The position numbers were made by a program, and so were the translations under genes. Below the pieces are notes generated by a model. It was not told the DNA's origin. It saw nothing but the letters and a program-made list of their open reading frames with translations, and searched no databases. 64,000 bases of DNA. Origin: Candidatus Woesearchaeota archaeon. GTDB lineage: Archaea; Nanobdellota; Nanobdellia; Woesearchaeales; JAZDKJ01. Each line of letters opens with the position of its first letter. Within the stretch, counting starts at the first letter, position 1. The DNA lies in contig JAZDKJ010000006.1 in NCBI GenBank assembly GCA_043803105.1, forward strand, positions 208,673-272,672, given 5' to 3'. This document shows positions 16,704 to 34,514 of this stretch, piece after piece.

Positions 16704-16704
16704 C

Positions 16705-17592
16705 TTATTTTCCTGTTCTGGTCTTCAAGAAGCTTGTCACCGGGTTTACAAACGGCTTGTCTGTTGTGAGTGACAAAAAGGGTATGCGGTGTAGCTTAAG
16801 CACATTCAAGACCTTTTCTTGTTCTTGCTTCGCGATGCGCTCAAAGGCTGCCTTGATATTTCTTGAGTCAACCACCATTTCCCTCTCGGAAAATGGGTCC
16901 TTGATTACTACCTGTCCCACATCTTCAGGGATTGTCAGGTCATGCGGGTCTCTTACCACTATTGCCATAAAATCGAATTTGCTGCTTGCTACCGTGAGCT
17001 CCCTTTCCCATTCTCCCTTTAGCCCAAAGAAGTCTGAGACTATGATCACAATAGCCTGCTTCTTCAGGTATCCGGTCAGGTACCTCAGTGCCTTTCCAAG
17101 GTCAAAGCCTCCGCCGTACATCTGCGGATTGCTAAGTTTTGTGGTGAGCATATAGTACTGCCGCTTCCCCATCATTGGCGGTGAGACGTTGACGATGCCC
17201 TCATTGAACATGATGAGCCCGACATAGTCCCCTGCCTGAAGTGCAGCAAATGAAATCGACGCTATGAGTTCTGCAGAGTATTCTGCTTTCATCTTGTCAG
17301 TTGATGCGAAGAGCATGCTGTTGCTCACATCAAAGAGGATTATCACAGTTATGTTTCTCTCTTCTATATACTTCTTGACAAGCACCTGTTGTGCTTTCAG
17401 TGTTGCCTTCCAGTCTATCTGGCTTGCATCGTCGTTGATGCTGTAAGGCCTAAATCCCTCGAACTCTAACCCTCTTCCCTTGATTGCTGTTAGGTAATCA
17501 CCCGTAAGCTCACCCATCATATTGTTCTTCATCGATACCTCAAACTTCTTCATCATTGGCTTGAGGTTGAGCTTTAGTTCTCGTACTGGCAT
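16705..17592 (-). CDS. DUF58-family protein, MoxR-associated vWA-like
   Basis: VIILFDVSNSM motif. Sits between the MoxR and BatA-like genes, the typical operon order. Confidence 0.65.
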   Translation of the reverse strand: MPVRELKLNLKPMMKKFEVSMKNNMMGELTGDYLTAIKGRGLEFEGFRPYSINDDASQIDWKATLKAQQVLVKKYIEERNITVIILFDVSNSMLFASTDKMKAEYSAELIASISFAALQAGDYVGLIMFNEGIVNVSPPMMGKRQYYMLTTKLSNPQMYGGGFDLGKALRYLTGYLKKQAIVIIVSDFFGLKGEWERELTVASSKFDFMAIVVRDPHDLTIPEDVGQVVIKDPFSEREMVVDSRNIKAAFERIAKQEQEKVLNVLKLHRIPFLSLTTDKPFVNPVTSFLKTRTGK

Positions 17593-17593
17593 T

Positions 17594-18583
17594 TTATGGT
17601 ACTGGTACCTTTGATAGAATTTCCTTTACTATGTCGTCGGGCTTTACTGCTTCTGCCTGTCCCTCATAGTTTACTATAATCCTGTGCCGCAGGACATCAG
17701 AGGCAACCTCTTTGATATCCTGTGGTGTTACAAACAGCTTTCCGTTAAGCATCGCCTCTGCCCTTCCAGCTATGTGTAACCCTATGGATCCCCTTGGAGA
17801 TGCTCCCCATTCGATGAACTTCCCAAGATTTAGTTTGTACTTGTCAGGATTCCTGGTTGCATCGATTATCCTCACTATGTATTTCTCAACCTTCTCGTCT
17901 ACGTATACCTGTCTCACTGCCTCTTGGATATCCATCAGTATCGGCCCGTCGAGCACGGGTTCTATTACTATGTCCTCAAATTTCCTGGTTGTGATGTTGT
18001 TTGTCAGCACCCTCTGCTCTTCCTCGACCGTTGGATAGAGTAGCTGCAGCTTGAATAAGAACCTGTCCAGTTGTGCTTCCGGCAGAGGATATGTTCCTAG
18101 CGATTCTATCGGATTTTGTGTTGCGAGCACAAAGAATGGTGGATCTAGCAGAAAGCTCTCTTTACCTATGGTTGCCTGCCTTTCAGCCATGCATTCCAGG
18201 AGAGCTGACTGAACCTTTGGCGGTGCGCGGTTTATCTCGTCTGCAAGCACGAAGTTTGCGAAGATTGGTCCTTTTACCACATAGAATCCCTTGTCCTTCT
18301 CGAACGCTGTGATGCCTACAATATCTGTTGGCAATAGGTCTGGAGTGAATTGTATTCTCGAGAACGAGCACTTCATCACCCTTGCTATTGTCCTCACAAG
18401 GAGCGTTTTTGCTATGCCTGGAACTCCTTCGAGTAGCACATGTCCGTTTGCGATTAGTGCCTTTAGCATGCAATTCACAGCTTTTTCCTGGCCCACCACA
18501 GACTTGGCAATCTCTGACTTTGCTAGCGTAAAAATCTTGGAATATTCCTCCACTTTCTTCGATAGTTCTCTATCTACAGGCAT
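17594..18583 (-). CDS. MoxR-family AAA+ ATPase
   Basis: VVGQEKAV...GHVLLEGVPGIAKT Walker A. Start set at the MPVDREL ATG at 18583, which leaves room for a divergent promoter with mtnP. Confidence 0.8.
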   Translation of the reverse strand: MPVDRELSKKVEEYSKIFTLAKSEIAKSVVGQEKAVNCMLKALIANGHVLLEGVPGIAKTLLVRTIARVMKCSFSRIQFTPDLLPTDIVGITAFEKDKGFYVVKGPIFANFVLADEINRAPPKVQSALLECMAERQATIGKESFLLDPPFFVLATQNPIESLGTYPLPEAQLDRFLFKLQLLYPTVEEEQRVLTNNITTRKFEDIVIEPVLDGPILMDIQEAVRQVYVDEKVEKYIVRIIDATRNPDKYKLNLGKFIEWGASPRGSIGLHIAGRAEAMLNGKLFVTPQDIKEVASDVLRHRIIVNYEGQAEAVKPDDIVKEILSKVPVP

Positions 18584-18687
18584 ACCTGCTTCTACCAGGG
18601 CGTGCTTTATATATTTTATTAAACCACTCGAGAGTAAAGACCTGTTTAACCAAAACAAATAAATAACAAGCAGTAACACCATTTCCT

Positions 18688-21368: not shown

Positions 21369-22397
21369 TTGATGAAGGTTGCCATCTCAATGGAAGAGAA
21401 ACGGCAAAGGGTCAAGGACAGGGCTCTTCTGCTTGTCGATAACTTATCAAGCAGTCTCTATGAGGAGGACATCCATGCTTTGTCCATAAGGTTCTTCTCG
21501 GTGATCCATGAGTTTTTCGCTGATTTTTGCGGTCTGCGCTATCAGTTCACCTATCCAGAGCTCATTTCAGAGATTAGGAAGCGCAACTTATTTGATGATT
21601 TCCTGTCCAAAAAGGTTATTGACTTTATTGCTGTGCTCCAGGAAAAGGAGTATAGTAAGACAGAATTTAATGTCTCTGAATTGAACAGGTGCCTAAAGGG
21701 ATTCAGGCTGATCATAAAGAGTTGTTCTGTCTCGACTACTCACCATGGCATGCACCATAGATTTTATTACCTATTCCAAAGGTTTGGCTTCCTTACAGCC
21801 CACCTTGCCAAGCGTTTTGGCAAGCGCGATGTAGATGATATAGTCTGCCTCATCAACTCTGCAAGGTCAAACCTCGACGAACATAACATCGACCAGGCTC
21901 AGAAAACTTATGAGGATATCATCAAGCTCTACAACAGGTTGTCTGCTGAGGAGAGGAAAAGCGTCTTTCACGGGATTCATTCCCTCTATGCATCAATTGA
22001 GAAGGCTTATACAGAAAGCCTGCTAAAGCAAATTGACAGTCTCTTTGAGGATCTGCATCACCAGCTTGATTCTGGAGACCTCGCCAAGGCCGCTGAAACC
22101 TATTCTTCACTTCAGGCGCGATATGATGAATTGCCTCCTGCGAATAAGAAAAGGCTGTATTCAGAGATTGGACATTGTTACACAGATCTGCAGGCTCTGC
22201 GTGACAAGTCAGCACTCACAGACTTTGACAGGCTTCTCGTAAGGATAAAGGCTGGTGTTACGAGCCAAAAGGTGAGCCTTGCGATGTCTTTGTATAATGA
22301 GGCAGACAACCTATATTCGCAGCTCCCGTTCAGACTGCAGCAAAAGGTCTATACCAATTTGAAGTCCACTTTCAGTCTGCTCTCACGGTTGAGCTGA
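21369..22397 (+). CDS. hypothetical alpha-helical Tyr/Leu-repeat protein, homologous to the cytoplasmic tail of the 723-aa surface protein
   Basis: FTYPELISEIRKRNL...EYSKTEF aligns with FTYEEIAVELRKRRV...EYSNYVV of ORF 27835-30006. Three ~36-aa repeats of the form xxY...LY..L......K.Y..I...Y. Its stop abuts the convergent giant gene. Confidence 0.5.
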   Translation: MMKVAISMEEKRQRVKDRALLLVDNLSSSLYEEDIHALSIRFFSVIHEFFADFCGLRYQFTYPELISEIRKRNLFDDFLSKKVIDFIAVLQEKEYSKTEFNVSELNRCLKGFRLIIKSCSVSTTHHGMHHRFYYLFQRFGFLTAHLAKRFGKRDVDDIVCLINSARSNLDEHNIDQAQKTYEDIIKLYNRLSAEERKSVFHGIHSLYASIEKAYTESLLKQIDSLFEDLHHQLDSGDLAKAAETYSSLQARYDELPPANKKRLYSEIGHCYTDLQALRDKSALTDFDRLLVRIKAGVTSQKVSLAMSLYNEADNLYSQLPFRLQQKVYTNLKSTFSLLSRLS

Positions 22398-25300
22398 CTA
22401 AGGATTGCTGCCCCGGTTCTTGGTTATCACAAAAACTGCATAGCCTATCATCGCCAGGGTTGATGCCAGCACAATACTGAGTTGCATCACGTTCTGTTTG
22501 GCAAAACTTATCAGGGTTGCCAGCGTGCCTTGCTCCATTGGTTGTTCGATCGTTCTCATCTGGCTGGTAATTAAGTACCTGCAAGCGTCGATTGCGTTCT
22601 TCAGCAGCTGCTGCGCTTCTGTGATTAATCCCGATTCTATGTCTGCCCTTGCCTCAGCCAACAGCTCGTTCAGCTCAAGGCATTCTGGGTTCGAAGATAG
22701 AAGGTCCCTGACAAAGCGTACAGAGTCGTTCATTGATTCAAGGAACGGCAATGGGTTTATGGATATAACAGCATTGTCTCTGAAATATGGGTCTTCTGAT
22801 ATCGCGCTTAGGTTTATCTGGTAAGGCTTTTGCTTTGGCTTGCTCGTGGTAATGTTTAGTTCAGTCTCTGTCTTTTCTCCAGGTCTTAGCTGGTTGAACC
22901 TCATTTCCTTGAACGTAAGTGTGACATTGCCTTCAGATGTTTGAGCCATAAGATGTATCTGTTTTAGGGTCACGTTGCCGCTGTTTCTCAATTCAATCGG
23001 TGCGATTATCTCTGTAGGAGAATTGAATTTCAGCGGTTTTGTCAACACAAGTTCAAGCGATATCGGTCTGGTAACATTGACAAGTTCTTTTCTTGGTACG
23101 CTTATGTACTGCGTCGCCCCACCCCCGCTGGAGCTTGCCTGTGGCAGGTATTCCTCAGGTGCCTTCTTTACAGAGACCACTACTGTATTTGACCATGCCG
23201 TCCTGTTTCTGGAGTCAGTGGTCCAGAAGACGAGGCTTGCATCTCCTGTGAAACCTGCCTCCGGGTTAAGGTTGACATACTTTTGGTTGTTAATGCTCAA
23301 CCCAAGATAGTCTGCATTCTGGATGCTCGTGTAGTTGAAGGTCAGTGAGTCATTGTCAGGGTCTTTGAAATAGTCATCCAAATCAATCCAATTCTGTACA
23401 GAGTGGTCTTCCACAACGATAAAGTTTGCTATGGAATAATTCATCTGTAAGCTTTCAATTACAGGTGTAACACCAATGTTGCTTGTGCTCATGTTTATCA
23501 TGAACTGCACGAACCTTGTGTTCCAAGTTGCAGGTGATGCATTCTGTTCGAACTCGTGGCTGAAGTTGATTAAGGTATGTTCGCTGTTTGTGGAAGGCTT
23601 GCCCCACGCGCTCCAGTTTATGCCGTCTGCGCTTGTTCTGGTCCTGATTGTTATGTTTGTCCCGGCAGGCTTTGATTCCATCCAGCTAACAATCGTCAGG
23701 TTGGGCCTTGCCACTGAGGTATAAACACCTGTCTGAGAGTCAACAGCACTTGAGATATAGCTTCCCTTTGTGTAGTAGCTGGTGCTGTTCTGTCTGGACA
23801 AGGTTATGTTTTGCGCTGTGTTGTTGGTTCTGTAGTTTGTGCCTCCTGTTAAACCTATTGTCTTTCTCCCAAAATATGATGGCCTGTCCAAGTTTTTTAC
23901 AGTGACATTCCAGTAGAAGGATGCCTTGTTCCCTAGTTGGTCGCGTACCTCAACTGTGACGTTTCTTGTTCCTGAATCAAACCACCCGATGTTATAGTTC
24001 CAGCTGCTGGCTGTGCCTTGAAGAACCCCGCCAAGTATCCATTTGTAATATTTTGGGTCTCCGTCTGGCTCAATACTGCTCTGGTTGAAAAGGATTGTTC
24101 TGTTCTCTGTAATATTTATCCTTGTTCCTTGGGGGAAAAGGTTGCGGTTTGCAAAGGCAAATACTGTGTAGCTTGATATCGGCCATCCATAAGGATATAT
24201 CATCGTGATGTTTGGCGCGTAGTTTGTTCCGTTGATTCTGAAAATCACCTTTCCGCCGGTCCATAGGCTTCCGTCATTCAAGGATATGTTTACTGTGTGA
24301 TTGCCCACCATCCCGCTGGTTATCGTATAGTTGATTAATCCCATCTGCAGTGAGATGTTCGTAATATTGAACATGGTTGAGTTTGTGTAAAAGAATAGCC
24401 TGTCGCCATCCACGTCTGAGCCGTTCACGTATATCACAGCCCTGTCTCCTACTTTGTACACTTTGTTCGGTATGTTTCTCATGATTGGCGCATCATTGAC
24501 TGAGGTCACTGTCACGGTAATGTTGTTGCTGTACGTTACGTTATGTGTGTCATTGAGGCTGAAGTAGAATACCTCCACCCCATGCCAGTTGGCTGAGGGA
24601 TAGAGGGAAATCTTGCTGTCATCCTCGATATTGACATTTACGTATACATCATCATAGACCTTGTAGCTCAGGTTATCCTTCTGTGAGCCTGAGCATAGGT
24701 GAAAGTCTGGGTCATAGAAATAGTCTGTTAATGTGAAATTGTCAATCAGGTCATGGTCCTCCTCCCACGTGATATTGGGGAAGGATATGTTCAGAAAAGG
24801 CCCCCTGTTGACATTTATTACTGTGACATTCCATGTTAAAACCGTTGTAGCGTTCTGTGAGTCCGTAGCCCAAACTGTCACATTATAGCGTCCTGCCTCA
24901 CAATATCCTGGCCAATACGTCCAATTCCTCTCATACGCTTTGATGGTGTTCATCAGGTAATACTTGAATGTTACAGGCTGGCCTTCCTCATCATACACCT
25001 GTGTGATATTGAAGAGCAATGAGCTTCCTTCAAATACAGAAACATTAGTCTGGTTGGGTTTGTAGCCTAGGATTACAGGAGGATCATTGACGTTCACGAT
25101 GCGGAATACCACCAGCCTGGATACATTGTTGAATCCGTCGCTAAGCGAGATGTTCACTGTGTGGTTTCCAACATCTTTCTGTATGGGTGTAAGGCCTATG
25201 TGATAGCTTGTTGTGTTGACCTTTGTCAAGTTGAACAGCGTATTATTGCTCCACATTGTGAGATTTGCCATTTCCTCGTCATAGCCGCCTATGTATATGC

Positions 25301-27518
25301 TTGCTGTCTGGTCTTCCAGCAGGGTGTAGTTTGTCCGTAGATTTGTAAAATAAGGTAGATCATTGACAATTGTAATGTTTAATGTGAAGATTGTGAGGTT
25401 ATACCCACCATATCCATCAGTGACATTCACCCTGATTGTATGGTTTCCCGCGTCTGCCTGCTGTGGTGTGAAATTAATGAGGCCTGCCGTGCTGTTGAAT
25501 AGGGATATCGAAAAGAAGCTAGCATTTGTCTGGAATATCAATTGGTCATTGTCAGGGTCAAATCCATTCACATAAAAGGTTAGTCTCTGGTCCTCTGCTA
25601 TGGTTTTTGGTCCTATTGGATAGATTAACGGCGCCCGGTTCACGAATATGGTCAAGTGCACGACCTGTGAATCGCTTTTCTGTATTGTGGTATCATCATC
25701 ATGTACGCTGATGTTCACAAACCATTCTCCAACCAGTGATGTGTTTGTGATGTTTAGGTTTGTACTGCTGCTTGCAGGGCTTATCACGTTTGCTGCGTCA
25801 ATGTTAAAGAAAGTGCAGTTATCAGTGAAGGTTAGTATATCATCTTCATCAAGGTCTGTCGCACTAAGATTCAGCAGATACGAGCGGTTTATCCTGAGGT
25901 AGGTGTGTGGGATTGCCGCCAGGATTGGTGGGTTGTTGTAGTCTACTATGCTGAACTTTACCAGGGTGTAGTTGATTGCACCCTTTGAATCAGTGACGGT
26001 TATCCTTACAGTATGGTTTCCAACGTCTTGATTGACTGGTGTGAAGCTGATTTGCCCTGTTGCATTGCCGTCTGCATGCCTTACCGTGACTATGTTGAAG
26101 AATGTTGCATTGTCTGTGAATGTCAGGTTATCCCCGTCCTGGTCTGTTGCATTGATTGTAGTAAAGAAAGGGGTACCTTCCATTGCTGACTGGTTGTTTA
26201 TGTGTTGTATCCATGGTGCTGTGTTGTTTCTTATTGTGAACTTGACTATCTGCGAGTCCCAGAGCTCTGAGTCATTGACTGAGATGTTCACGAAATGGTC
26301 ACCTTGTTGCGAATTGCTGGGAGTAAAGTTGATTAAACCGGATAGTGCGCCAATTGTAAATAACGTGGAGTTGCTGTTAAAGTATAGGTATTCTCCACCA
26401 TCCACGTCTGTTGCGTTTGCCCAGAATTCGTACTTCAGGCCTGCAATCAAGGTTTGGTTGGGGATGAACACGAGCTCAGGCGGGTCATTGACACCAGTCA
26501 CATTAAGCTTTATCGTGTTGCCGAATGCAGCATTGTGGCTGTCATTTGCCTTGAGCGTGATGTACTCAACACCCCAGAAATTTACCTGCGGCAAGAAGCT
26601 CACCTTGGAACTCGTGGCATTGATTGTAACCATTATGTATGTATTGCCACTCACTGTGTAAATTACTGTGTCTTTGTTTGCACCGGTGCAATTTATGTCA
26701 GGGTCAACGAAATAGCTCTGCAGTGTTAGATTGTTTGTTAGATTATGGTCCTCCTGCCAGGTGATGTTGGCAAAGCTTCCATTGAGCACTGGAGGCCTGT
26801 TTGTGTTGTTTACTGTTATAGTCCAATTGTGTGTGTCTGCAGTCTCGTTGAGGTCCCTGACCACAAGCGATACATTGTGTTTTCCTGCTGAACAAAAGTC
26901 CGCATAATATGTCCAGCTTCCGTTTGACATATTGGAGATTTTTTTTGCCGTATTGTCCAGGTACCATGTTGTGTTAAGCCTGTCTCCCCATGGCATGTCC
27001 TTGTCGCTTGTGCTGTAGTTGAACCAGAATCCTACGCTGAGGTTCTCTTGTGTGCTCACATTTTTCTGCACTGGATTCCACCAGGTGATGTTTGGCTTGT
27101 CGTTCAAGTTCTTTACGTAGAAGTACAGCAATACGCCTGAGAATTCTGTTGGTTTTCCTGCGTCCAGCGCGTTCACAATTATGGTCCAGTTCAGTTGGCC
27201 TGTCAAAGGATCTCCCACGTCATTATTTGTGGGAGTGAAGTTCATCAGCGCTGCAGTATTGTTCTTGCTTACCAGGCTGAATGAGCTGAATTTTCCAGGA
27301 GGCAGGTCGTGGGTAAAGTTTATTGGGTACTCCAAGTCTGGGTCTGTTGCTATTATGAAGAACTGGAACCTCTGTCCTTGTGTCAGGTTGAACATGGTGC
27401 CGCTTGCAACATTCTGGAATATCGGGTTTGCTGCATAGACTCCTGTTACGGTTAGGATGAGTGCAACTGCGATCAACACTGTTGACCTTCTCATGTCATC
27501 CTCACTTTTATTGTGCAA
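22398..27518 (-). CDS. giant (1706-aa) cadherin-like-repeat surface protein with signal peptide and C-terminal membrane anchor
   Basis: N-terminal signal peptide. Many roughly 100-aa repeats each ending in a V(N/T)D-x-PP-like motif (VNDPPELVF, VNDAPIMRN, NTNRPPVLNG, VNRAPLIYP). Very dense N-x-S/T sequons. C-terminal TM segment. Confidence 0.75.
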   Translation of the reverse strand: MHNKSEDDMRRSTVLIAVALILTVTGVYAANPIFQNVASGTMFNLTQGQRFQFFIIATDPDLEYPINFTHDLPPGKFSSFSLVSKNNTAALMNFTPTNNDVGDPLTGQLNWTIIVNALDAGKPTEFSGVLLYFYVKNLNDKPNITWWNPVQKNVSTQENLSVGFWFNYSTSDKDMPWGDRLNTTWYLDNTAKKISNMSNGSWTYYADFCSAGKHNVSLVVRDLNETADTHNWTITVNNTNRPPVLNGSFANITWQEDHNLTNNLTLQSYFVDPDINCTGANKDTVIYTVSGNTYIMVTINATSSKVSFLPQVNFWGVEYITLKANDSHNAAFGNTIKLNVTGVNDPPELVFIPNQTLIAGLKYEFWANATDVDGGEYLYFNSNSTLFTIGALSGLINFTPSNSQQGDHFVNISVNDSELWDSQIVKFTIRNNTAPWIQHINNQSAMEGTPFFTTINATDQDGDNLTFTDNATFFNIVTVRHADGNATGQISFTPVNQDVGNHTVRITVTDSKGAINYTLVKFSIVDYNNPPILAAIPHTYLRINRSYLLNLSATDLDEDDILTFTDNCTFFNIDAANVISPASSSTNLNITNTSLVGEWFVNISVHDDDTTIQKSDSQVVHLTIFVNRAPLIYPIGPKTIAEDQRLTFYVNGFDPDNDQLIFQTNASFFSISLFNSTAGLINFTPQQADAGNHTIRVNVTDGYGGYNLTIFTLNITIVNDLPYFTNLRTNYTLLEDQTASIYIGGYDEEMANLTMWSNNTLFNLTKVNTTSYHIGLTPIQKDVGNHTVNISLSDGFNNVSRLVVFRIVNVNDPPVILGYKPNQTNVSVFEGSSLLFNITQVYDEEGQPVTFKYYLMNTIKAYERNWTYWPGYCEAGRYNVTVWATDSQNATTVLTWNVTVINVNRGPFLNISFPNITWEEDHDLIDNFTLTDYFYDPDFHLCSGSQKDNLSYKVYDDVYVNVNIEDDSKISLYPSANWHGVEVFYFSLNDTHNVTYSNNITVTVTSVNDAPIMRNIPNKVYKVGDRAVIYVNGSDVDGDRLFFYTNSTMFNITNISLQMGLINYTITSGMVGNHTVNISLNDGSLWTGGKVIFRINGTNYAPNITMIYPYGWPISSYTVFAFANRNLFPQGTRINITENRTILFNQSSIEPDGDPKYYKWILGGVLQGTASSWNYNIGWFDSGTRNVTVEVRDQLGNKASFYWNVTVKNLDRPSYFGRKTIGLTGGTNYRTNNTAQNITLSRQNSTSYYTKGSYISSAVDSQTGVYTSVARPNLTIVSWMESKPAGTNITIRTRTSADGINWSAWGKPSTNSEHTLINFSHEFEQNASPATWNTRFVQFMINMSTSNIGVTPVIESLQMNYSIANFIVVEDHSVQNWIDLDDYFKDPDNDSLTFNYTSIQNADYLGLSINNQKYVNLNPEAGFTGDASLVFWTTDSRNRTAWSNTVVVSVKKAPEEYLPQASSSGGGATQYISVPRKELVNVTRPISLELVLTKPLKFNSPTEIIAPIELRNSGNVTLKQIHLMAQTSEGNVTLTFKEMRFNQLRPGEKTETELNITTSKPKQKPYQINLSAISEDPYFRDNAVISINPLPFLESMNDSVRFVRDLLSSNPECLELNELLAEARADIESGLITEAQQLLKNAIDACRYLITSQMRTIEQPMEQGTLATLISFAKQNVMQLSIVLASTLAMIGYAVFVITKNRGSNP

Positions 27519-27838
27519 TTGTTTTGCTTATTGTCCACAGTATATTGCACCTCAACAGTGTTCTGCCCAACTTGTACATCTTGCCATGTGCATCTTATTC
27601 CTTCTTGTATTGCTGAGCAAATGTTTGTGTCTGCTTTGGTTGGATAGCCTTCAATCGTTGCCACTATGTTCTGCCCTTTGCTTAAAATGATTTCATCATT
27701 GCACCTGATGTGGTGGATTTCTTCTTGCGACATTACCAAGTAGCTGGTTAATGACTGAGTGTCGAGCATCAGGCTTATAGCTGCTAATATGGTGGTTATT
27801 AGCACCAGGAGCCCCATTTGCTGTTTCCACTGCCTCAT
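27491..27838 (-). CDS. small secreted or membrane-anchored Cys-containing protein
   Basis: Signal-anchor GLLVLITTILAAI, four Cys, and a position between the two large surface genes with short overlaps on both sides. Confidence 0.4.
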   Translation of the reverse strand: MRQWKQQMGLLVLITTILAAISLMLDTQSLTSYLVMSQEEIHHIRCNDEIILSKGQNIVATIEGYPTKADTNICSAIQEGIRCTWQDVQVGQNTVEVQYTVDNKQNNCTIKVRMT

Positions 27839-30006
27839 TTCTTCTCCTTTGTTGATTTATGTAGTTCGTCGTACAGCCTTCGTACTGCTGCAAAGTATTG
27901 TCTCTGGTCTTGCTCGCTCAAGACCTTGTAAAGTTTCATCACTTGCTTGTACCCTCGAACCGCTGCCTGTTGGTCATTCTTGTGCATTGCCTCAAATACA
28001 TTGTATATCAACTCAAACATCTGCCTGGATTTTCCTTCTATTTTCCATGAGGTTTTGTTTTGTATAATACGCATGTCTGTGCTCTGCTTGATTATTCTGC
28101 GAAGTTCTTCTATCAAGTTTGCTAGCTCCTCGCTTGACACTACATAATTGCTGTACTCTATCTCTTTGATTCTTCGCAGCAATGATTCCGCTATTCCTTG
28201 CAACTTTGGATCAACCCTCCTTTTCCTAAGTTCTACAGCTATCTCCTCGTAGGTAAATTCATAATCCAGTCTAAGCATTGCCTTGAAGAATTGCTTGGTT
28301 GCGCTGCCAAGCTCCTTGATGCCTTCCTTTGGATGTCTTACATCAATCGAGTCCAGTTGTGCCAAGACCTCCTCATAAGTTGTCGTCTCTGTTCTGAAGG
28401 TCAATTTCATCAGCTGTGCAAGGTTCTGGCTCGTTCTGTGTTTTTCTAGTACCTTGGTTACATATGGTTTGCTAATCATGATACCAACTAGGATTGCCAT
28501 TGTAAGGAGGCTAATCAAAATAATTGACCATCCTGTGAAAGCCTCCTGCAAAGTCTCTATTGATATCGGCTGCTCTGTAGCTATTACCGCCTCTCCCGCC
28601 CCGCCAGGTTGCGCTAGGCATGGTTCGCAAGGTCCTCCGCAATCTATGCCTGCCTCTTCCTGGTTCTTTACCCTGTCATAGCATGTGGCGCATGGCTGGC
28701 ATGGTCCGCCGCAATCAACACCCTCCTCATTCCGGTTCCACACTCCGTCAATGCATTGGGGTATGCCCTTGCATGGCTGGCTTATGCTCGGCCTCTTCTT
28801 TATGGTGTTGCAATTGTTTAGGTCTATGCAGTTCCTGTACATTGTGCCGTTTTCAAGGCAGCCATCCCACCTCTGGCAGAACCACTCTTCAACGCACTTA
28901 ATGCTTCCACCACCTCCGCCTCCGCCTCCGCCTGCAGCTGCCGGTACTATAGGTGGTGGTGTAGTGACGCGGAGTGAAACATTGTTGCTTCTGTTGCTTG
29001 CACCCCAATTGTCTGTTACAGTGAAGTACACCAATTCATTGCCAATCCATCCTTGCGGCTGTGAGAAAACCACAAAATTGTTGCTCGTTGGGTAAATGTC
29101 TGCTTTTATTACGTGCAGCGGATTGAGATATACAACATTGAAGTATAGGTGGTCGTCCCTGTCAGGGTCAAACACAAAATCATTCAGGTAGAATGCCGCC
29201 CTTATCTGATTTACAAACCAGGTCTGTGGCTCTAGGTTCCTGATAAACCTTGGTGGCCTGTTGACATTGGTTATGTTCACTGTCCAGTTTAGCATTCTCG
29301 TGTTGTTGAATTGGTCTGACAGCATGATTGACACATTGAAAATGCCTACCGAAGTGAAGTTGGTGTTAAGTGCATACCTGCTGCTTCCAGTTGCATTGGC
29401 TGTGCTGTTTCTTGTCTGCCCGTTGACTCTCCATTGTAGGCTGACTGTCTCATTTAGGGTTTCAAAGAATGAGACCTTGAACCGCAAGGTCTTGTTCTCG
29501 CTTATGTTGACTTTCGGGAATTTGCTGTATACTGATTGATTTGGGTAATAACCTGTTATGTTTGGTGGTAGGTTTTTTATTATCGTGATGTTCAGGCTTT
29601 TGGTTGTTAGCCTGTTTGAGCAAATTGAACTGTCATCTGCTGTTATGTTGACCGTTTGCCTTCCTGTATTGGCATTGCTGGCTGTAAAGTAGATTACTCC
29701 GGTAATTGGGTCTATGTCAAACATGGTACTGTCATCAAAATAGGTGATTGTGTCGTTGTGCGGGTCAGTTGCATTGGCTCTGCAAAAATAATAGTAGAAA
29801 GCTGTGAAGTTCTTTGGGCAATTGATATTGAGTTGCGGCGGTACATTGATGCACAGGTTCAACAGTGCTTCTGAAAAGTCGCTTGCTTTGCCTGTTAGCC
29901 GTGTTGGTGCACTGGCTTCTTGGTAGATTCTCACGTTTATGTAAAAGCCTATGATTACGAAAACAACCGCCACTGCGGCTATTGTGTTGTTTGAGATCCT
30001 AATCAT
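27835..30006 (-). CDS. 723-aa single-pass surface protein with a cadherin-like repeat ectodomain, poly-Gly linker, Cys-rich module, TM helix and cytoplasmic Tyr/Leu-repeat domain
   Basis: Signal peptide, VNRPP motif, a G9 linker, two GxDCGGPC(Q/E)PC repeats, the TM helix WSIILISLLTMAILVGIMI, and a C-terminal domain homologous to ORF 21369-22397. Confidence 0.7.
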   Translation of the reverse strand: MIRISNNTIAAVAVVFVIIGFYINVRIYQEASAPTRLTGKASDFSEALLNLCINVPPQLNINCPKNFTAFYYYFCRANATDPHNDTITYFDDSTMFDIDPITGVIYFTASNANTGRQTVNITADDSSICSNRLTTKSLNITIIKNLPPNITGYYPNQSVYSKFPKVNISENKTLRFKVSFFETLNETVSLQWRVNGQTRNSTANATGSSRYALNTNFTSVGIFNVSIMLSDQFNNTRMLNWTVNITNVNRPPRFIRNLEPQTWFVNQIRAAFYLNDFVFDPDRDDHLYFNVVYLNPLHVIKADIYPTSNNFVVFSQPQGWIGNELVYFTVTDNWGASNRSNNVSLRVTTPPPIVPAAAGGGGGGGGGSIKCVEEWFCQRWDGCLENGTMYRNCIDLNNCNTIKKRPSISQPCKGIPQCIDGVWNRNEEGVDCGGPCQPCATCYDRVKNQEEAGIDCGGPCEPCLAQPGGAGEAVIATEQPISIETLQEAFTGWSIILISLLTMAILVGIMISKPYVTKVLEKHRTSQNLAQLMKLTFRTETTTYEEVLAQLDSIDVRHPKEGIKELGSATKQFFKAMLRLDYEFTYEEIAVELRKRRVDPKLQGIAESLLRRIKEIEYSNYVVSSEELANLIEELRRIIKQSTDMRIIQNKTSWKIEGKSRQMFELIYNVFEAMHKNDQQAAVRGYKQVMKLYKVLSEQDQRQYFAAVRRLYDELHKSTKEKK

Positions 30007-30154
30007 TGTCCTTCTTTTCTTTGTACTTGAGCAACATGTGCCTGATTCCCTCTCGTGTTATCTCTGCTTGGTTGCTGAACAGTCCCTTATCTATCAGCTC
30101 CTGCATCTGCCTCTTCATTTCTTTTCCGACACGTATATGGATTAGCGTTGCCAT
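29999..30154 (-). CDS. ribbon-helix-helix (CopG/Arc-like) DNA-binding protein, 51 aa
   Basis: MATLIHIRVGKEMKRQMQELIDKGLFSNQAEITREGIRHMLL. Start taken at the internal ATG at 30154. Overlaps the start of the 723-aa gene by 8 nt. Confidence 0.55.
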   Translation of the reverse strand: MATLIHIRVGKEMKRQMQELIDKGLFSNQAEITREGIRHMLLKYKEKKDND

Positions 30155-30322
30155 TTTGCTATTTATAAGTATCAGAAATATAACTAATTGATATATATAA
30201 ATATTTGTATATAAGTAGATAGAATAAAACAGATATATCGAAATGATACACTTAAGATACACTTTATTATAGGGCAGTCAAAATAATCTACAAAAGGCTT
30301 AAAAACCTAGAAACCGCAATCT
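30155..30322. promoter_or_regulatory. AT-rich promoter region with several TATA-like boxes heading the RHH and surface-protein operon
   Basis: ATATATAAATATTTGTATATAAG-type elements upstream of the minus-strand RHH gene. Confidence 0.3.
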
Positions 30323-30739
30323 CTACCAGGCTCTTGTTATGACTATTCTCAGCTTGCCGTAATATGTGCCGTTCACAGTGTTTTCAGGCACAATTCCTGA
30401 TGATTGCACCTGTTCTTGCGTGCCCTTGTCCAGTCTAAAGCTTGTATTGGAGAACCTGACAAACCTTGCCACATCTCCAGAGATTTGGACGGTAACTTGA
30501 ACCGGCATGTTATAGATGTTTCTAACAGTGAAAGCCCGATGTCCTGTTCCGCCCGGAGGTACTGCTCCGTAGGTAAGGTTGATAGGGTTTACATCAATGC
30601 CCACAAAGTCTGCCACCACGAGCTTCACATGGGTTTCCTTTACATCAACTACATAATAGAATGAGTATAAGATTGATGTTGCAGTTATGGAAATCAGCAG
30701 CGCCACAAAAAGCAGAATCAGCGTTTGCTTAAGGTTCAT
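30323..30739 (-). CDS. secreted or membrane-anchored hypothetical protein (138 aa)
   Basis: N-terminal TM/signal LILLFVALLISITATSILY. Last gene of the minus-strand secreted-protein operon. Confidence 0.45.
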   Translation of the reverse strand: MNLKQTLILLFVALLISITATSILYSFYYVVDVKETHVKLVVADFVGIDVNPINLTYGAVPPGGTGHRAFTVRNIYNMPVQVTVQISGDVARFVRFSNTSFRLDKGTQEQVQSSGIVPENTVNGTYYGKLRIVITRAW

Positions 30740-31859
30740 TTTTCCTCCTGCCTCTCATCAGGAGCAGCATAAGCCCTGCCACAATTATCAAGAGAGCAAT
30801 CAATCCTAAACCCCCAAATACTATCATTGGTTGTTCAGTCAGTTTCTTCTTGGCAGGAGTGGTAATCTCAACAATTCCTTGGTAACTGTTTGTGCCACCG
30901 TCATACTTCAAAATGATGGTTGACTGGTACATACCGGGCTTCATGTTTTTTGTGTCAAAATATGTCTTCATGGTTTTTGTTTCCCATGGTTCAAGGTCGG
31001 TTGATGGTGTTTGGAATGTTGTGTTGCCAACGCTCACAATAGCATATTGATTTGTTATCCTCGAATTCCACAGGCTTTGCACTATTACCTCAAATGGGCT
31101 GATGGTTTCAAATCCTGCTGTCCTTGTGTAGTTTATCAAACCTACTGAGAGGGATCCTATCTTGAATTGCCTGCTCATATAAGAGGTATTTGTCCTGTAA
31201 TGGAATGCTGCCTTTGCCAGGTACTCGCCTCCCTTGTAGCCTTTGCTTGCCCATTTCACAGCATACGATTGTCTTTCCACTCTTGAAGCCAGTGGTTTTG
31301 TATCAGTTTTTAGTTCTGCAATTGTCTGGCCTGCCATATCTACAATCTGAACATCACCCCAAGACGCAGTAATATTTTCATAACCATAGTTTGATGCATA
31401 TATCGTCACTGGCAGAGTCTCATTCTCGTTGATGTTCGGGACTGCAAAATCTGTCAAGACAAAAACCCCCGGAAAAGGGACAACTATGACAATGAATGCC
31501 ACTACAGTGGTTGCGGTACCTATCATGTCACCGCCTTGCGGAACCTCAGCAGCGCTGACTTCGATTATGTTCTTGCCAGGTGTTTTTATGAACTCAGGCA
31601 GTTTGAGATGTATCGTTACAGCCTGTCCCTTGAGGTTTTGCGCCGAGAATTCTTCTGTTTTCAATAAGCTTGCGTATTGTGCCAGCCCTCCACCCAAGTT
31701 GACTCTGATTTGTGCAGCATCCCCTACCAGGAAGGTCACATCCTGTTCCAGGTTGGGTTGGAAATCAATATAGGTTTTTGCTGGAGAAATGAACGTTCCT
31801 TGTACTGCTTGCACTGAAATAAAGATAAAAAATAAGAAAAAAAGGTTATGCCTCCTCAT
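30729..31859 (-). CDS. secreted hypothetical protein with C-terminal TM anchor (376 aa)
   Basis: Signal peptide FFLFFIFISVQAVQG and C-terminal GLGLIALLIIVAGLMLLLMRGRRKNEP. Confidence 0.55.
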   Translation of the reverse strand: MRRHNLFFLFFIFISVQAVQGTFISPAKTYIDFQPNLEQDVTFLVGDAAQIRVNLGGGLAQYASLLKTEEFSAQNLKGQAVTIHLKLPEFIKTPGKNIIEVSAAEVPQGGDMIGTATTVVAFIVIVVPFPGVFVLTDFAVPNINENETLPVTIYASNYGYENITASWGDVQIVDMAGQTIAELKTDTKPLASRVERQSYAVKWASKGYKGGEYLAKAAFHYRTNTSYMSRQFKIGSLSVGLINYTRTAGFETISPFEVIVQSLWNSRITNQYAIVSVGNTTFQTPSTDLEPWETKTMKTYFDTKNMKPGMYQSTIILKYDGGTNSYQGIVEITTPAKKKLTEQPMIVFGGLGLIALLIIVAGLMLLLMRGRRKNEP

Positions 31860-31868
31860 AATGCTTCC

Positions 31869-32525
31869 TTAAATTTTTGGTTTACCTGTCGCTATAACTG
31901 TATTGCGTTTTAATCCTAGGGGGGCTGTGCCGTCAAAACTGACTTGAACATGCAGGCTAATTGTGTTTGCCGAGACACCATAGTAGAATCTGTCGCAGGT
32001 TATATTGCTCCATCCCTCATGCGTAACCTCAACCCAGTCATTCACGAATTTTGACATATTGGTTGACAAGACGCACCCTGCTGTGGCTGTCGAACCTGTC
32101 CTTGTGCCGTTAAGCATCTTAAAAAACAAATGGGCATTTGTCCCTCCAACAAATGCTGAGCTGTTCTTGAAAGTGATGTTTAGTGAGCAGTTGTTGTTTC
32201 CGATATTCCTTAACTCCAATGCCTCAGTACAAGCCTGAAAGGTTGTAGAGCATCCACTTGTATTGATATATCCGCTCGTGTTCAGTTTGCAGGTCCTCGT
32301 TGCGTATCCGGTTCCCCAGTTGCACCTTGCCTGGCTAAAGTTAATCCAGTTTACGTCGCTTATTGTAAGACTAATGTTGCCTACTGTTTTGTTGGCTGAA
32401 GCGAATCCTGCTGCCCCCGGTTTAATCCCTGATAGTTTGTTCAGGCTTATAAGTGACCCTCCTATTGATACCACTATAGCTGATATAAGAAGTATTGTTA
32501 GTGTCTTGTTGGATATTTCTTGCAT
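31869..32525 (-). CDS. secreted Cys-containing paralog P1 (218 aa)
   Basis: N-terminal signal anchor, conserved ARCNWG.GYA...CKLNTS.YIN.SGCS...NIGNNNCSLNITFKN...ATGKPKI. Many N-sequons. Confidence 0.55.
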   Translation of the reverse strand: MQEISNKTLTILLISAIVVSIGGSLISLNKLSGIKPGAAGFASANKTVGNISLTISDVNWINFSQARCNWGTGYATRTCKLNTSGYINTSGCSTTFQACTEALELRNIGNNNCSLNITFKNSSAFVGGTNAHLFFKMLNGTRTGSTATAGCVLSTNMSKFVNDWVEVTHEGWSNITCDRFYYGVSANTISLHVQVSFDGTAPLGLKRNTVIATGKPKI

Positions 32526-32536
32526 TTTTTTCCTCC

Positions 32537-32770
32537 TTATGGCTTTCGTATCTCTAGGTTGATTTCTGCTTGTGTTGTTGGTTGCGGTTGTATGTTCAGT
32601 TGTATTTCTGCGTTTGCCGTCGGTATATCTGTTGGTTGTTTGTTTGTTGTTTGTTGGCCTGGTGCTTTCGGTATATTAACACTAGTTATAAAAGCCCACG
32701 TGCTTATTACAGAGCTCATAATGACTAGCACCAACAGAATTAGTACAGTGTTTTTTGATATGTCTGTCAT
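32537..32770 (-). CDS. small single-TM protein S1 (77 aa), cassette partner of P1
   Basis: MTDISKNTVLILLVLVIM...WAFIT...PTTQAEINLEIRKP. Start set at the conserved MTD.SKN. Confidence 0.45.
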   Translation of the reverse strand: MTDISKNTVLILLVLVIMSSVISTWAFITSVNIPKAPGQQTTNKQPTDIPTANAEIQLNIQPQPTTQAEINLEIRKP

Positions 32771-32830
32771 CCTCTTTGAACCTCCTTGAGTGCGATTCTT
32801 CCTGCCGAATAGTCGCATTAGTTGCTTGTC

Positions 32831-33487
32831 TTACACCTTTGGTTTTCCTGTTGCTATTATAGTATTGGTTCTCACTCCTGTCCTTGCCGCTGCGTCAAAT
32901 TCTACTTGGACTTGGAGGGTTATTGTGTTTTGGTTTACTCCGAAGTAGAATTTGTCGCATGTGATGTTGCTGTATGCTTCTTTTGTTACTTTTACCCAGT
33001 CTGCTGATACGAATCTTGAGAAGTTTGTTGAAAGGGTGCATCCAGGTCTTATGTTTGTTGCTCCGGTCCCGTTTTGCAGTTTATAAAATAGTTTAGTGTT
33101 TGCTCCTCCTATAAATTCTGAATTGTTTTTGAATGTGATGTTTAGTGAGCAGTTGTTGTTTCCGATGTTCTTAATCTGCAGCGGTAAGCAGTTTACTGTG
33201 CTGAAGCCTGGCGAGCATCCGCTTGCGTTTATGTATGGGCTTGTGTTCAGTTTGCACATTGTTGTTGCGTAGCCTGATCCCCAGTTGCACCGTGCTTGTG
33301 AGAAGTTTATCCAGTTAATGTCGCTTATCGTGAGTGTCACATTGCCCCTTGTTATATTTGCCGTGGCAAAGCCCGCAATGTTTTGCACTGCCGCAAGCCT
33401 GTTTAGGCTAATAAGCGATCCTCCTAAGGTAATTATGATAGCGGCAATTAGCAATATAGCCAATGTTCTGTTAGATATTTCTTCCAT
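32831..33487 (-). CDS. secreted Cys-containing paralog P2 (218 aa)
   Basis: Same family as P1 and P3, with stretches of near-identical nucleotide sequence. Confidence 0.55.
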   Translation of the reverse strand: MEEISNRTLAILLIAAIIITLGGSLISLNRLAAVQNIAGFATANITRGNVTLTISDINWINFSQARCNWGSGYATTMCKLNTSPYINASGCSPGFSTVNCLPLQIKNIGNNNCSLNITFKNNSEFIGGANTKLFYKLQNGTGATNIRPGCTLSTNFSRFVSADWVKVTKEAYSNITCDKFYFGVNQNTITLQVQVEFDAAARTGVRTNTIIATGKPKV

Positions 33488-33501
33488 TGTGTTTTCCTCC
33501 T

Positions 33502-33744
33502 TTATGGTTTTTTTATTTCTAGGTTGATTTCCGCCTGTGTCGTTGGTGGCGGTTGTACAGGTTGTATAAACAGTTCTATCTGACCGTCTACTGCTGGCGG
33601 CATGTTTATCTGTTGTTTGATTGGTGTTTGCGCCTGTCTTTGCAGAGTGTTCACATTGGTGATGAACGCCCAGGTACCAATAACAGAGGTCAGGATAATC
33701 ATTACTAATAGAACCAATATGATATTCTTGGACACGTCCGTCAT
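33502..33744 (-). CDS. small single-TM protein S2 (80 aa), cassette partner of P2
   Basis: MTDVSKNIILVLLVMIIL...WAFITNVN...PPTTQAEINLEIKKP. Confidence 0.45.
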   Translation of the reverse strand: MTDVSKNIILVLLVMIILTSVIGTWAFITNVNTLQRQAQTPIKQQINMPPAVDGQIELFIQPVQPPPTTQAEINLEIKKP

Positions 33745-33848
33745 TAGATCCTTTTTTAAACTATGTTTGTTGAATCCTAAATATGGTTTTTGATACTGCA
33801 CATATTTAAGCTTTTCTGTGACCTGAAACACAGGTTGCCTGACTTTGT

Positions 33849-34514
33849 CTATATTTTTGGTTTTCCTGTTGCTATTATTTTGTTGATTCTAAATCCTGTG
33901 GTTGCTGCTGCGTCAAATTCTACTTGGACTTGGAGGGTTATTGTGTTTTGGTTTACTCCGTAGTAGAATTTGTCGCATGTGATGTTGCTGTAATATGTTT
34001 TTGTTACTTTTACCCAGTTTGCTGTTACGAATCTTGAGAAGTTTGTTGATAGGGTGCATCCGGGTAGTGTGTTTGTTGTTCCGGTCCCGTTTTGTAGTTT
34101 GTATGATATTTTTGCGTTTGCTCCTCCTATGAATGCTGAGCTGTTTTTGAATGTGATGTTTAGTGAGCAGTTGTTGTTTCCGATGTTTTTTATTTGTAGT
34201 GGTGCGCAGTTTGTTGTTGTGAAGCCTGATGAGCATCCGCTTGCGTTTATGTATGGGCTGGTGTTCAGTTTGCAGGTCTTTCTTGCGTAGCCTGATCCCC
34301 AGCTGCATCTTGATTGTGAGAAGTTGATCCAGTTAATGTCGTTGATTGTAAATGAGACGTTGCCTCCGGTTTCGTTTGTTACTGCATAGCCTATTATGGC
34401 TAAGTGGCCTTCGCCAGTGATTCGGTTTATGCTCAGTAATGTGCCCATTACAGTCACAAAGAGCGCAACCACTGCAATGGATGCCAGAACTTTGTTGGAC
34501 ACGTTATTATACAT
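33849..34514 (-). CDS. secreted Cys-containing paralog P3 (221 aa)
   Basis: Same family. First gene of the operon, with an AT-rich promoter at 34515-34650. Confidence 0.55.
   Translation of the reverse strand: MYNNVSNKVLASIAVVALFVTVMGTLLSINRITGEGHLAIIGYAVTNETGGNVSFTINDINWINFSQSRCSWGSGYARKTCKLNTSPYINASGCSSGFTTTNCAPLQIKNIGNNNCSLNITFKNSSAFIGGANAKISYKLQNGTGTTNTLPGCTLSTNFSRFVTANWVKVTKTYYSNITCDKFYYGVNQNTITLQVQVEFDAAATTGFRINKIIATGKPKI

What the first reader, a model, noticed from the sequence alone, without database searches (positions are those of the whole stretch)
21369..28500. Cytoplasmic Tyr/Leu-repeat domain shared by the 723-aa surface protein tail and an adjacent soluble protein
The roughly 190-aa cytoplasmic tail of the 723-aa protein (after its TM helix) aligns along its length with soluble ORF 21369-22397. 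Matching segments are FTYEEIAVELRKRRV with FTYPELISEIRKRNL, EYSNYVVSSEEL with EYSKTEFNVSEL, and VMKLYKVLSEQDQRQYF with IIKLYNRLSAEERKSVF. The soluble protein adds two more copies of a roughly 36-aa unit with regularly spaced Tyr and Leu. That gene is convergent with and directly abuts (22397/22398) the giant surface-protein gene. This looks like an uncharacterised intracellular module linked to the surface proteins, possibly an anchoring or signalling adaptor.
Basis: seen in the sequence. Interest (0 to 1): 0.6.

Follow-up and report, generated by a model that had tools for sequence, protein, structure and literature searches.

The report
Intracellular helical module of archaeal adhesin cluster
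A real, unannotated all-helical protein module occurs twice here, once as the cytoplasmic tail of a surface protein and once as a free protein; across Woesearchaeota both copies sit in a conserved gene cluster with a giant adhesin and a MoxR-DUF58-vWA (Bat-like) system, so it is probably the inner-side part of that poorly understood machinery.

Summary
The tail of the 723-aa surface protein (res 541-723) and the 342-aa soluble protein share 25% identity over 174 aa (43 bits; 600 shuffles reach at most 24.6). The module defines a family of at least 564 protein clusters. Every member with a source name is called hypothetical, the labelled ones are mostly Woesearchaeota/Nanoarchaeota, and no Pfam or NCBIfam model matches.

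The module has two parts:
- An N-terminal helical bundle with the motif FF..L.L.YEFTxEEL...EY.
- A three-helix repeat with a period of about 62 aa, not 36, present once in the tail and three times in the soluble protein.

Across 42 distinct loci (41 from other genomes plus the window) the gene order recurs: BatA-DUF58-MoxR, then the soluble module gene (divergent), then the giant Ig/cadherin adhesin (convergent), then the surface protein carrying the tail. The two paralogues are ancient: 15-25% identical within a genome, while orthologues reach up to 92%.

The N-terminal bundle resembles, weakly but consistently, the post-membrane tail of Bacteroides BatD-family/DUF4381 proteins from the classic Bat operon. 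It fails the Pfam DUF4381 model.

My best reading is that this is the cytoplasmic docking or scaffold module of a Bat-like adhesin system. The mechanism is inferred, not shown. Interest is moderate; I rate it a new variant of a known kind.

The parts
21369..22397 (+). Soluble module protein, 342 aa (NCBI: hypothetical V1837_03085, 341 aa starting at the ATG at 21372). N-terminal helical bundle plus three ~62-aa three-helix repeats.
21447..21728 (+). N-terminal sub-domain of the soluble protein (res ~27-120) with the motif FF..F.GLRYQFTYPEL...EYS
   Evidence: AF2 pLDDT >90 with the alignment
21822..22394 (+). Three ~62-aa helical repeats (res ~152-216, 217-277, 278-342). The first belongs to the module shared with the tail.
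27838..28386 (-). Module copy in the cytoplasmic tail of the 723-aa protein (res 541-723): N-terminal sub-domain plus one repeat
28471..28530 (-). Transmembrane helix of the 723-aa protein (res ~493-512), followed by KPYVTKVLEKHR (positive-inside)
28531..30006 (-). N-terminal signal anchor and sequon/Cys-rich Ig-like (weak Big_9) ectodomain of the 723-aa protein. It is homologous to parts of the giant and is conserved in all tail-bearing orthologues.
22398..27518 (-). Giant surface protein, 1706 aa (Big_9, cadherin-like and PKD repeats; 107 sequons; C-terminal TM; 7-residue cytoplasmic end; no module)
27491..27838 (-). 115-aa ORF with an N-terminal hydrophobic helix, between the 723-aa gene and the giant gene. 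A 125-aa gene is called at the same position in L002.
29999..30262 (-). Small ribbon-helix-helix-like protein overlapping the start of the 723-aa gene. Homologues lie upstream of the tail gene in 7 of 22 loci.
15756..18682 (-). BatA-like TM vWA protein (15756-16703), DUF58 protein (16705-17592) and MoxR AAA+ ATPase (17594-18682): the conserved partner operon
30323..34514 (-). Conserved upstream surface-protein genes (138 aa, 376 aa and three ~218-aa paralogues) that travel with the cluster in many loci

Best explanation
The shared region is a Woesearchaeota-wide cytoplasmic all-alpha module. It consists of a juxtamembrane helical bundle (motif FF..L.L.YEFTxEEL...EY; T and E fit a helix N-capping box) followed by one to several ~62-aa three-helix repeats that form a rod. 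It is the intracellular part of a Bat-like surface system. One ancient paralogue is fused behind the TM helix of an Ig-like surface protein, giving a BatD-like layout: signal anchor, beta-sandwich ectodomain, TM, helical tail. The other paralogue is a free cytoplasmic protein encoded between the MoxR-DUF58-vWA(BatA) operon and a giant adhesin gene. Most likely mechanism (inferred): the tail is the cytoplasmic handle of the adhesin complex, and the soluble paralogue is a scaffold that docks on that handle, by like-with-like contact, and/or on MoxR-DUF58. This would let the cytoplasmic AAA+ chaperone assemble, anchor or remodel the external adhesin/vWA complex. Shown: homology of the two copies, the family, its architecture, topology, synteny and the age of the duplication. 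Probable: remote relation to BatD/DUF4381 tails. Inferred only: the binding partners and the direction of control.
For: The similarity is real. Family: 564 cluster representatives at E<=1e-3 and 123 at <=1e-10. F48, F49, T60, E63, Y180 and Y187 are conserved in >=90% of sequences. Two separable sub-domains and five architectures were found, including N-terminal TM plus module. The AF2 model built with 95 homologues has mean pLDDT 91.8 and is all-helical, with long continuous helices linking the repeats. Topology. Synteny in 42 distinct loci (41 from other genomes plus the window): MoxR is divergent-adjacent in 18/27, the giant is convergent-adjacent in 21/32, the giant lies directly downstream of the tail gene in 18/25, and both paralogues are present in 16 loci. 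Ancient paralogy: 15-25% identity within a genome against up to 92% between orthologues; the nearest neighbour is of the same class in 41/47. BatD/DUF4381 link: the N-sub-domain HMM's best hit among 899 ORFs of five bacterial Bat loci is the post-TM tail of the B. finegoldii small BatD-family protein, E 7.6e-4, next best 0.74. hhalign gives P 0.013-0.016 in the expected register, and 7 of 300 column shuffles reach the real score. The large BatD tail gives P 0.012 in the same register. In the reverse search, 6 of the top 10 of 5179 ORFs are module proteins aligned at the module start, p 3e-10. Homologues of that Bacteroides tail pass the DUF4381 threshold. Literature: BatA-type BB0173 has three TM helices with its vWFA domain in the periplasm, and Bat proteins are proposed to form a membrane complex of unknown function (PMC5700661, PMC3557215).
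Confidence: 0.45

Rival explanations
1. The module belongs functionally to the MoxR-DUF58-vWA system only, as an archaeal counterpart of DUF4381. Its presence on the adhesin-like protein and next to the giant gene reflects a shared regulon or genomic hitch-hiking, not a physical link to adhesion.
For: The soluble gene is directly divergent from MoxR with gaps of 22-180 bp in most loci, and this holds even where no giant is present (L006, L027, L033, L040, L043). N-terminal-TM-plus-module forms lie next to MoxR (L039, L026). The N-sub-domain resembles DUF4381-type tails.
Against: One paralogue is covalently fused to an Ig-like surface protein in every tail-class orthologue. The giant gene abuts the soluble gene with gaps of -25 to +70 bp in many genomes. 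Several clusters lack an adjacent MoxR (L028, L031, L032, L044).
Confidence: 0.25
2. The soluble protein is a cytoskeleton-like or membrane-skeleton rod that anchors the adhesin tail mechanically, in the way talin/catenin or spectrin adaptors do. MoxR would play no part.
For: The AF2 model shows a rod of short three-helix units joined by continuous helices. There are weak sub-threshold Spectrin_7 and TPR_6 hits. The top Foldseek hit is the helical N-terminal arm of the S-layer protein SbsC (prob 1.0 but TM 0.24). The number of repeats varies from 1 to 5 or more between genomes.
Against: No significant structural or sequence match to spectrin, talin or catenin. The minimal family members are only ~200 aa with a single repeat. 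It does not explain the strong MoxR adjacency.
Confidence: 0.15
3. The similarity is a chance or compositional artefact of Lys/Glu/Leu-rich helices, or a recent local duplication or assembly artefact with no functional meaning.
For: Both regions are helical and rich in K, E and L. The word-index searches found nothing beyond the protein itself.
Against: None of 600 shuffles comes near the real score. Hundreds of homologues carry a specific conserved motif. Both classes are conserved as separate lineages in many genomes.
Confidence: 0.02

Closest known systems
BatD-family proteins and DUF4381 (PF14316) of bacterial Bat (Bacteroides aerotolerance) / MoxR-DUF58-vWA operons
   Same: Same operon partners (MoxR, DUF58, BatA-type TM vWA). 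Same layout for the 723-aa protein: signal sequence, beta-sandwich ectodomain, TM, ~100-aa helical tail after a Lys/Arg-rich stop-transfer. Some family members are N-terminal TM plus module, like DUF4381. There is weak colinear sequence similarity: FY..v..ff...l.l.YEFT.EEL...EY against YY.el...lR.YI..RFGFNA.EMTSsEI...KFA.
   Different: No hit to the Pfam DUF4381 or BatD models. The ectodomain is Big_9/cadherin-like, not the BatD DUF11-like domain. A ~62-aa helical repeat is appended. A free soluble paralogue exists. A giant adhesin is part of the cluster. No second vWA (BatB) and no periplasmic TPR proteins (BatC/E) were seen.
Bifidobacterium PFNA cluster (pkb2, fn3, aaa-atp = MoxR, duf58, tgm)
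   Same: A membrane-anchored Ig-like (FN3) adhesion protein is encoded together with MoxR and DUF58, and the MoxR is proposed to act as a chaperone for the surface protein (PMC8430577, PMC12607495).
   Different: The partners differ (Ser/Thr kinase, transglutaminase). No vWA BatA, no shared tail/soluble module. Bacterial, and not tested for homology here.
Tetratricopeptide repeat (TPR) and spectrin-type helical repeats
   Same: The repeat core A...Y......Y..L resembles a TPR A/B helix pair. The AF2 model shows stacked helical units, and Foldseek lists TPR proteins.
   Different: The period is ~62 aa with three helices, against 34 aa with two helices for TPR and ~106 aa for spectrin. All hits are below family thresholds, and TM-scores are 0.15-0.27.
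Integrin/cadherin cytoplasmic-tail adaptors (talin, catenins); analogy only, from general knowledge
   Same: A single-pass Ig/cadherin-like receptor with a cytoplasmic tail plus a soluble helical-bundle rod protein. vWA and FG-GAP propeller genes lie nearby.
   Different: No sequence or fold match was found. Here the tail and the adaptor are paralogues of each other, which is not the case in eukaryotic systems.

Membership tests
Pfam DUF4381 (PF14316) | Match to the family HMM at or above the gathering score (27.2 bits) | tested here: not met
   No DUF4381 hit was reported: not for the ten TM+module segments scanned at E<=10, not for the window's two proteins, and not among the family lists shown for 149 family members (one search shows 25 of 284 families). 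Positive controls from Agrobacterium and Sinorhizobium score 115-118 bits.
Pfam DUF4381 (PF14316) | TM helix followed by a ~100-aa helical domain on the cytoplasmic side | tested here: met
   Tail-class proteins and N-terminal-TM-plus-module forms (P0061, P0064, P0077, P0112 and others; L039, L026) have this layout. Lys/Arg residues follow the TM.
Pfam DUF4381 (PF14316) | Gene located in a MoxR-DUF58-vWA operon | tested here: met
   MoxR is adjacent to the soluble or N-TM module gene in 18/27 loci. In Agrobacterium, DUF4381 sits between DUF58 and vWA.
Pfam DUF4381 (PF14316) | Detectable remote homology by profile-profile or reciprocal profile search | tested here: inconclusive
   Against Bacteroidetes tails: hmmsearch E 7.6e-4 among 899 ORFs, hhalign P ~0.013-0.016 (7 of 300 column shuffles reach the real score), and reverse-search enrichment p 3e-10. 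Against proteobacterial DUF4381: not significant.
BatD family (PF13584, BatD DUF11-like domain) | BatD ectodomain HMM match | tested here: not met
   The 723-aa protein, the giant and 54 large family members show Big_9, cadherin-like, He_PIG and PKD domains only.
BatD family (PF13584, BatD DUF11-like domain) | Signal sequence, Ig-like ectodomain, C-terminal TM and short helical cytoplasmic tail, encoded with MoxR/DUF58/BatA | tested here: met
Bat-like MoxR-vWA system (operon level) | MoxR AAA+ ATPase, DUF58 protein and BatA-type TM vWA protein in one operon | tested here: met
   Precomputed Pfam hits bpMoxR/AAA_3, DUF58 and BatA+VWA in L001, L004, L006 and L008. The window's BatA matches NCBIfam VWA_BatA_Lepto at 6.4e-31, below that model's cut-off.
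Bat-like MoxR-vWA system (operon level) | Second vWA protein (BatB) and secreted TPR proteins (BatC, BatE) | tested here: not met
   No second vWA or TPR gene is called in the conserved clusters.
TPR repeat | 34-aa helix-turn-helix repeat matching a TPR HMM above threshold | tested here: not met
   TPR_6 scores 18.2 bits against a cut-off of 26.3. The period is ~62 aa with three helices.

The most novel reading that the evidence does not exclude
DPANN archaea of the Woesearchaeota carry an integrin-like, inside-out controlled attachment machine. A soluble helical-rod paralogue binds the homologous cytoplasmic tail of an Ig-like receptor. Driven by the MoxR-DUF58 AAA+ pair, it switches or assembles the giant adhesin and the external vWA protein that hold the symbiont to its host. 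The tail/adaptor pair would have arisen by duplication of one BatD/DUF4381-type domain, which would also give the first mechanistic handle on the long-enigmatic Bat operons of bacteria.
Probability: 0.12. Interest if true: 0.8.

Novelty: new variant of a known kind. Interest (0 to 1): 0.5.

Why it matters
MoxR-DUF58-vWA (Bat) operons are widespread in bacteria and archaea, yet their function is still called elusive (PMC3557215).

This cluster offers an unusually legible version. The cytoplasmic domain that bacterial BatD/DUF4381 proteins carry behind their membrane helix appears here twice. One copy is on an adhesin-like receptor and one is a free protein placed exactly between the AAA+ operon and a giant adhesin gene. 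That points to the post-membrane tail as the likely contact between the cytoplasmic chaperone and the external complex, which is a testable idea.

It also defines an unannotated protein family of at least 564 clusters, and a conserved surface-protein cluster, in Woesearchaeota. These are DPANN archaea, generally thought to depend on contact with other cells (general knowledge, not tested here).

Tried and rejected
- **Word-index protein searches.** The 342-aa protein found only itself. The two-sequence profile found nothing, not even the query, although the same profile works locally.
- **Family libraries.** Pfam and NCBIfam scans of the window proteins, 149 family members and ten TM+module segments found no family above threshold.
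- **Solved structures.** A PDB sequence search with the N-sub-domain profile found nothing below E 0.05. Foldseek against the PDB with both AF2 models returned only generic TPR/helical hits, none at E<=1e-3.
- **Related loci.** A 12-sequence alignment worked.
- **Plasmids.** tblastn of the family consensus found no match.
- **Proteobacterial relatives.** hhalign against DUF4381 and BatD tails from Proteobacteria was not significant.
- **Literature.** Searches for Woesearchaeota or DPANN with MoxR or surface proteins found nothing relevant.
- **Rejected ideas.**
  - Coiled-coil or composition artefact.
  - Recent duplication or gene conversion.
  - The repeats being TPRs equivalent to BatC/BatE: those carry signal sequences and are periplasmic (sequences), whereas these repeats are cytoplasmic.
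Full report
**Source and anatomy.** The window comes from a Candidatus Woesearchaeota MAG. ORF 21369-22397 is 100% identical to NCBI 'hypothetical protein V1837_03085' on a 542-kb contig. The region holds, on the minus strand, a 723-aa protein (27835-30006), a 115-aa ORF (27491-27838) and a 1706-aa giant protein (22398-27518). On the plus strand lies the 342-aa ORF 21369-22397, which abuts the giant gene convergently with no gap. The giant is built of Big_9, cadherin-like and PKD repeats.

**Check of the observation.**
- BLASTP aligns res 44-216 of the 342-aa protein with res 568-721 of the 723-aa protein: 25% identity over 174 aa, E 2e-7.
- Against the isolated tail the score is 43.1 bits. 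600 residue shuffles give a mean of 15.1, sd 2.5 and a maximum of 24.6; the reversed tail gives 15.4. The similarity is real and is not compositional.
- The TM helix is res ~493-512, so the tail is ~211 aa and the module is res 541-723.
- Topology: the ectodomain has 20 N-x-S/T sequons and 18 Cys, while the tail has 1 and 0. The giant has 107 sequons. The soluble protein has 2, like cytosolic enzymes of the same window. KPYVTKVLEKHR follows the TM. The module is therefore cytoplasmic.
- The extra units in the soluble protein exist, but their period is ~62 aa, not 36. They lie at res ~152-216, 217-277 and 278-342.

**A real family.**
- The word-index searches found only the protein itself.
- An exhaustive HMMER scan with the two-sequence profile found 564 cluster representatives at E<=1e-3 and 123 at <=1e-10.
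- Every member that carries a name is 'hypothetical protein'. The two with an organism label are Woesearchaeota.
- No Pfam or NCBIfam model matches.
- The domain layout shows two separable parts. The first is an N-terminal sub-domain with F48, F49, T60 and E63 conserved in >=90% of sequences and the consensus R.FF...L.L.YEFT.EEL..EL.K...EY. The second is the ~62-aa repeat, present one to five or more times.
- Five architectures occur:
  - ~200-aa soluble proteins (sub-domain plus one repeat).
  - ~340-aa soluble proteins (three repeats, as here).
  - 630-880-aa soluble forms.
  - C-terminal tails of 600-1200-aa single-pass surface proteins.
  - N-terminal TM plus module.

**Genomic context.** I collected 42 distinct loci: 41 from other genomes (4 from exact-protein look-ups, 37 from a scan of species-representative genomes) plus the window. 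I annotated them with a family HMM and with the window's own proteins. A gene order recurs:
- BatA(vWA), DUF58 and MoxR on one strand.
- The soluble module gene, divergent from MoxR.
- The giant adhesin, convergent with the soluble gene.
- The tail-bearing Ig-like protein.
- Often a small RHH gene and three further surface-protein genes.

Counts:
- MoxR is adjacent and divergent to the soluble gene in 18 of 27 loci.
- The giant is adjacent and convergent in 21 of 32.
- The giant lies directly downstream of the tail gene in 18 of 25.
- Both paralogue classes are present in 16 loci.

In this window and its close relatives (L001-L003), three housekeeping genes (purine/MTA phosphorylase-like, amidohydrolase, AlaX-like) are inserted between MoxR and the module gene. 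Some loci keep only the MoxR link (L006, L027, L033, L040, L043). Others keep only the adhesin link (L028, L031, L032, L044).

**Age of the duplication.** Within one genome the soluble and tail copies are 15-25% identical. Orthologues of the same class reach up to 92%, and the nearest neighbour is of the same class for 41 of 47 sequences. Both paralogues have therefore been kept separately for a long time. Recent duplication or gene conversion is excluded.

**Relation to known families.** The MoxR-DUF58-BatA neighbourhood suggested comparing the module with bacterial Bat operons. From PLSDB I took five bacterial MoxR loci. The annotated ones show Bat operons:
- Bacteroides finegoldii: MoxR, DUF58, a small BatD-family protein, BatA, BatB, a TPR protein, BatD, a TPR protein.
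- Agrobacterium: MoxR, DUF58, DUF4381, vWA, vWA, BatD.
- Cetobacterium somerae: MoxR, DUF58, a hypothetical protein, two vWA proteins, a hypothetical protein, BatD.

The Sinorhizobium and Cupriavidus records carry no annotation in PLSDB, but the Sinorhizobium locus encodes a DUF4381 protein.

The evidence for a link:
- Among 899 six-frame ORFs of these loci, the best hit of the N-sub-domain HMM is the post-TM tail of the small Bacteroides BatD-family protein: E 7.6e-4, with the next best at 0.74.
- hhalign against 112 homologues of that tail gives score 18.1-18.3 and P 0.013-0.016 over 77-81 columns. The motifs align as expected: YEFTyeEL with EMTSsEI, and EY with KF. Of 300 column shuffles, 7 reach the real score.
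- The tail of the large BatD aligns in the same register, P 0.012.
- In the reverse direction, the Bacteroidetes-tail HMM ranks module proteins, aligned at the module start, as 6 of its top 10 among 5179 ORFs (hypergeometric p 3e-10). Each single E-value is only 0.1-2.5.
- Two homologues of the Bacteroides tail pass the Pfam DUF4381 threshold.

The evidence against:
- No Woesearchaeota sequence matches Pfam DUF4381 or BatD, and the ten TM+module segments give no hit even at E<=10.
- Proteobacterial DUF4381 and BatD tails give no signal.

I therefore treat the N-terminal sub-domain as a probable remote relative (about 0.6) of the BatD/DUF4381 post-membrane tail, not as a member of either Pfam family. 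The 723-aa protein has BatD's layout with a different ectodomain.

**Mechanism.** The following is shown. The module is cytoplasmic and all-helical. It is present as a membrane-tethered and a free paralogue. It is encoded with a cytoplasmic AAA+ MoxR and DUF58, a TM vWA protein and giant adhesin-like proteins.

From the literature: a BatA-type protein (BB0173) has three TM helices with its vWFA domain in the periplasm, and Bat proteins are thought to form a membrane complex of unknown function (PMC5700661, PMC3557215). In bifidobacteria a membrane-anchored FN3 adhesion protein is likewise encoded with MoxR and DUF58 (PMC8430577).

My inference is that the tail is the cytoplasmic handle of the surface complex. 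The soluble paralogue would be a scaffold that docks on that handle and/or on MoxR-DUF58, coupling the chaperone to assembly, anchoring or remodelling of the adhesin complex. This step is untested, and I give the overall explanation 0.45.

The rivals are:
- A purely MoxR-linked role (0.25).
- A passive membrane-skeleton anchor (0.15).
- An artefact (0.02, refuted).

One point does not fit. The window's BatA has no sequon at all, although surface proteins of this organism carry 3-6 per 100 residues. The side on which its vWA domain lies here remains open.

**Verdict.** It is a new, unannotated family and a distinctive DPANN variant of the Bat/MoxR-vWA theme. Interest is moderate. It would be high if the tail/paralogue pair proved to be the link between the AAA+ chaperone and the adhesins.

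Noticed in passing
window 18688-21345: Three housekeeping genes (PNP/MTA-phosphorylase-like, amidohydrolase, AlaX-like tRNA-editing) sit between MoxR and the module gene here and in L001-L003. In most other genomes MoxR and the module gene are directly divergent neighbours, so this looks like an insertion into a conserved cluster.
   Followed up: partly
window 29999-30262 (-): A small ribbon-helix-helix-like protein (weak ParD/CdrS-type hits) overlaps the start of the 723-aa gene. Homologues lie upstream of the tail gene in 7 of 22 loci. It may be the regulator of the adhesin operon.
   Followed up: partly
window 30323-34514 (-): Three ~218-aa sequon-rich paralogues, each with an N-terminal hydrophobic helix, are interleaved with 93-109-aa ORFs that share the ending TTQAEINLEI(R/K)KP. 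A 376-aa and a 138-aa protein follow. None has a Pfam family, and homologues travel with the cluster in many loci. This may be a surface fibre or pilus-like set.
   Followed up: partly
window 13646-15759 (+): A KaiC-like ATPase and an FG-GAP/PQQ-type beta-propeller with no obvious signal sequence are convergent with BatA. KaiC-like homologues are also next to the MoxR operon in L001 and L008. Together with vWA this gives an 'integrin-like' set of domains.
   Followed up: partly
window 15756-16703 (-): The BatA-like vWA protein has zero N-x-S/T sequons in 315 aa, although the positive-inside rule and the Borrelia BB0173 precedent would put its vWA domain outside, where this organism's proteins are heavily sequon-rich.
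   Followed up: partly
window 47843-49846 (+): GC content rises to 0.49 (window average ~0.43) within a 667-aa protein that has N-terminal TM helices, one FN3 domain and a Pro/Gly/Ala-rich C-terminal half.
   Followed up: no
window 49843-53322 (+) and 56406-57926 (-): There are three consecutive long Lys/Glu-rich ORFs that look helical (483, 330 and 344 aa). Only the separate 506-aa secreted-looking protein was scanned against Pfam, and it had no match. Their function is unknown.
   Followed up: no
L038 and L041 (same genome, JAGVZF01): One Woesearchaeota genome carries two MoxR-DUF58-BatA operons. Each has a tail-bearing surface protein gene convergent with BatA and no soluble module gene adjacent. 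L011 and L014 (same genome) likewise carry two copies of the adhesin cluster.
   Followed up: no
L017-L020, L024-L026, L028, L033, L034, L046; L021: Eleven loci with the typical Woesearchaeota cluster are labelled 'uncultured Methanosarcinales archaeon' and one 'Alphaproteobacteria bacterium' in their record titles. These are probably mislabelled or mis-binned records, but I did not verify this.
   Followed up: no
window 43562-44704 (-): A second, secreted vWA-like protein with a Cys-rich N-terminal region (repeated C..C.C motifs) lies elsewhere in the window, unlinked to the MoxR operon.
   Followed up: no
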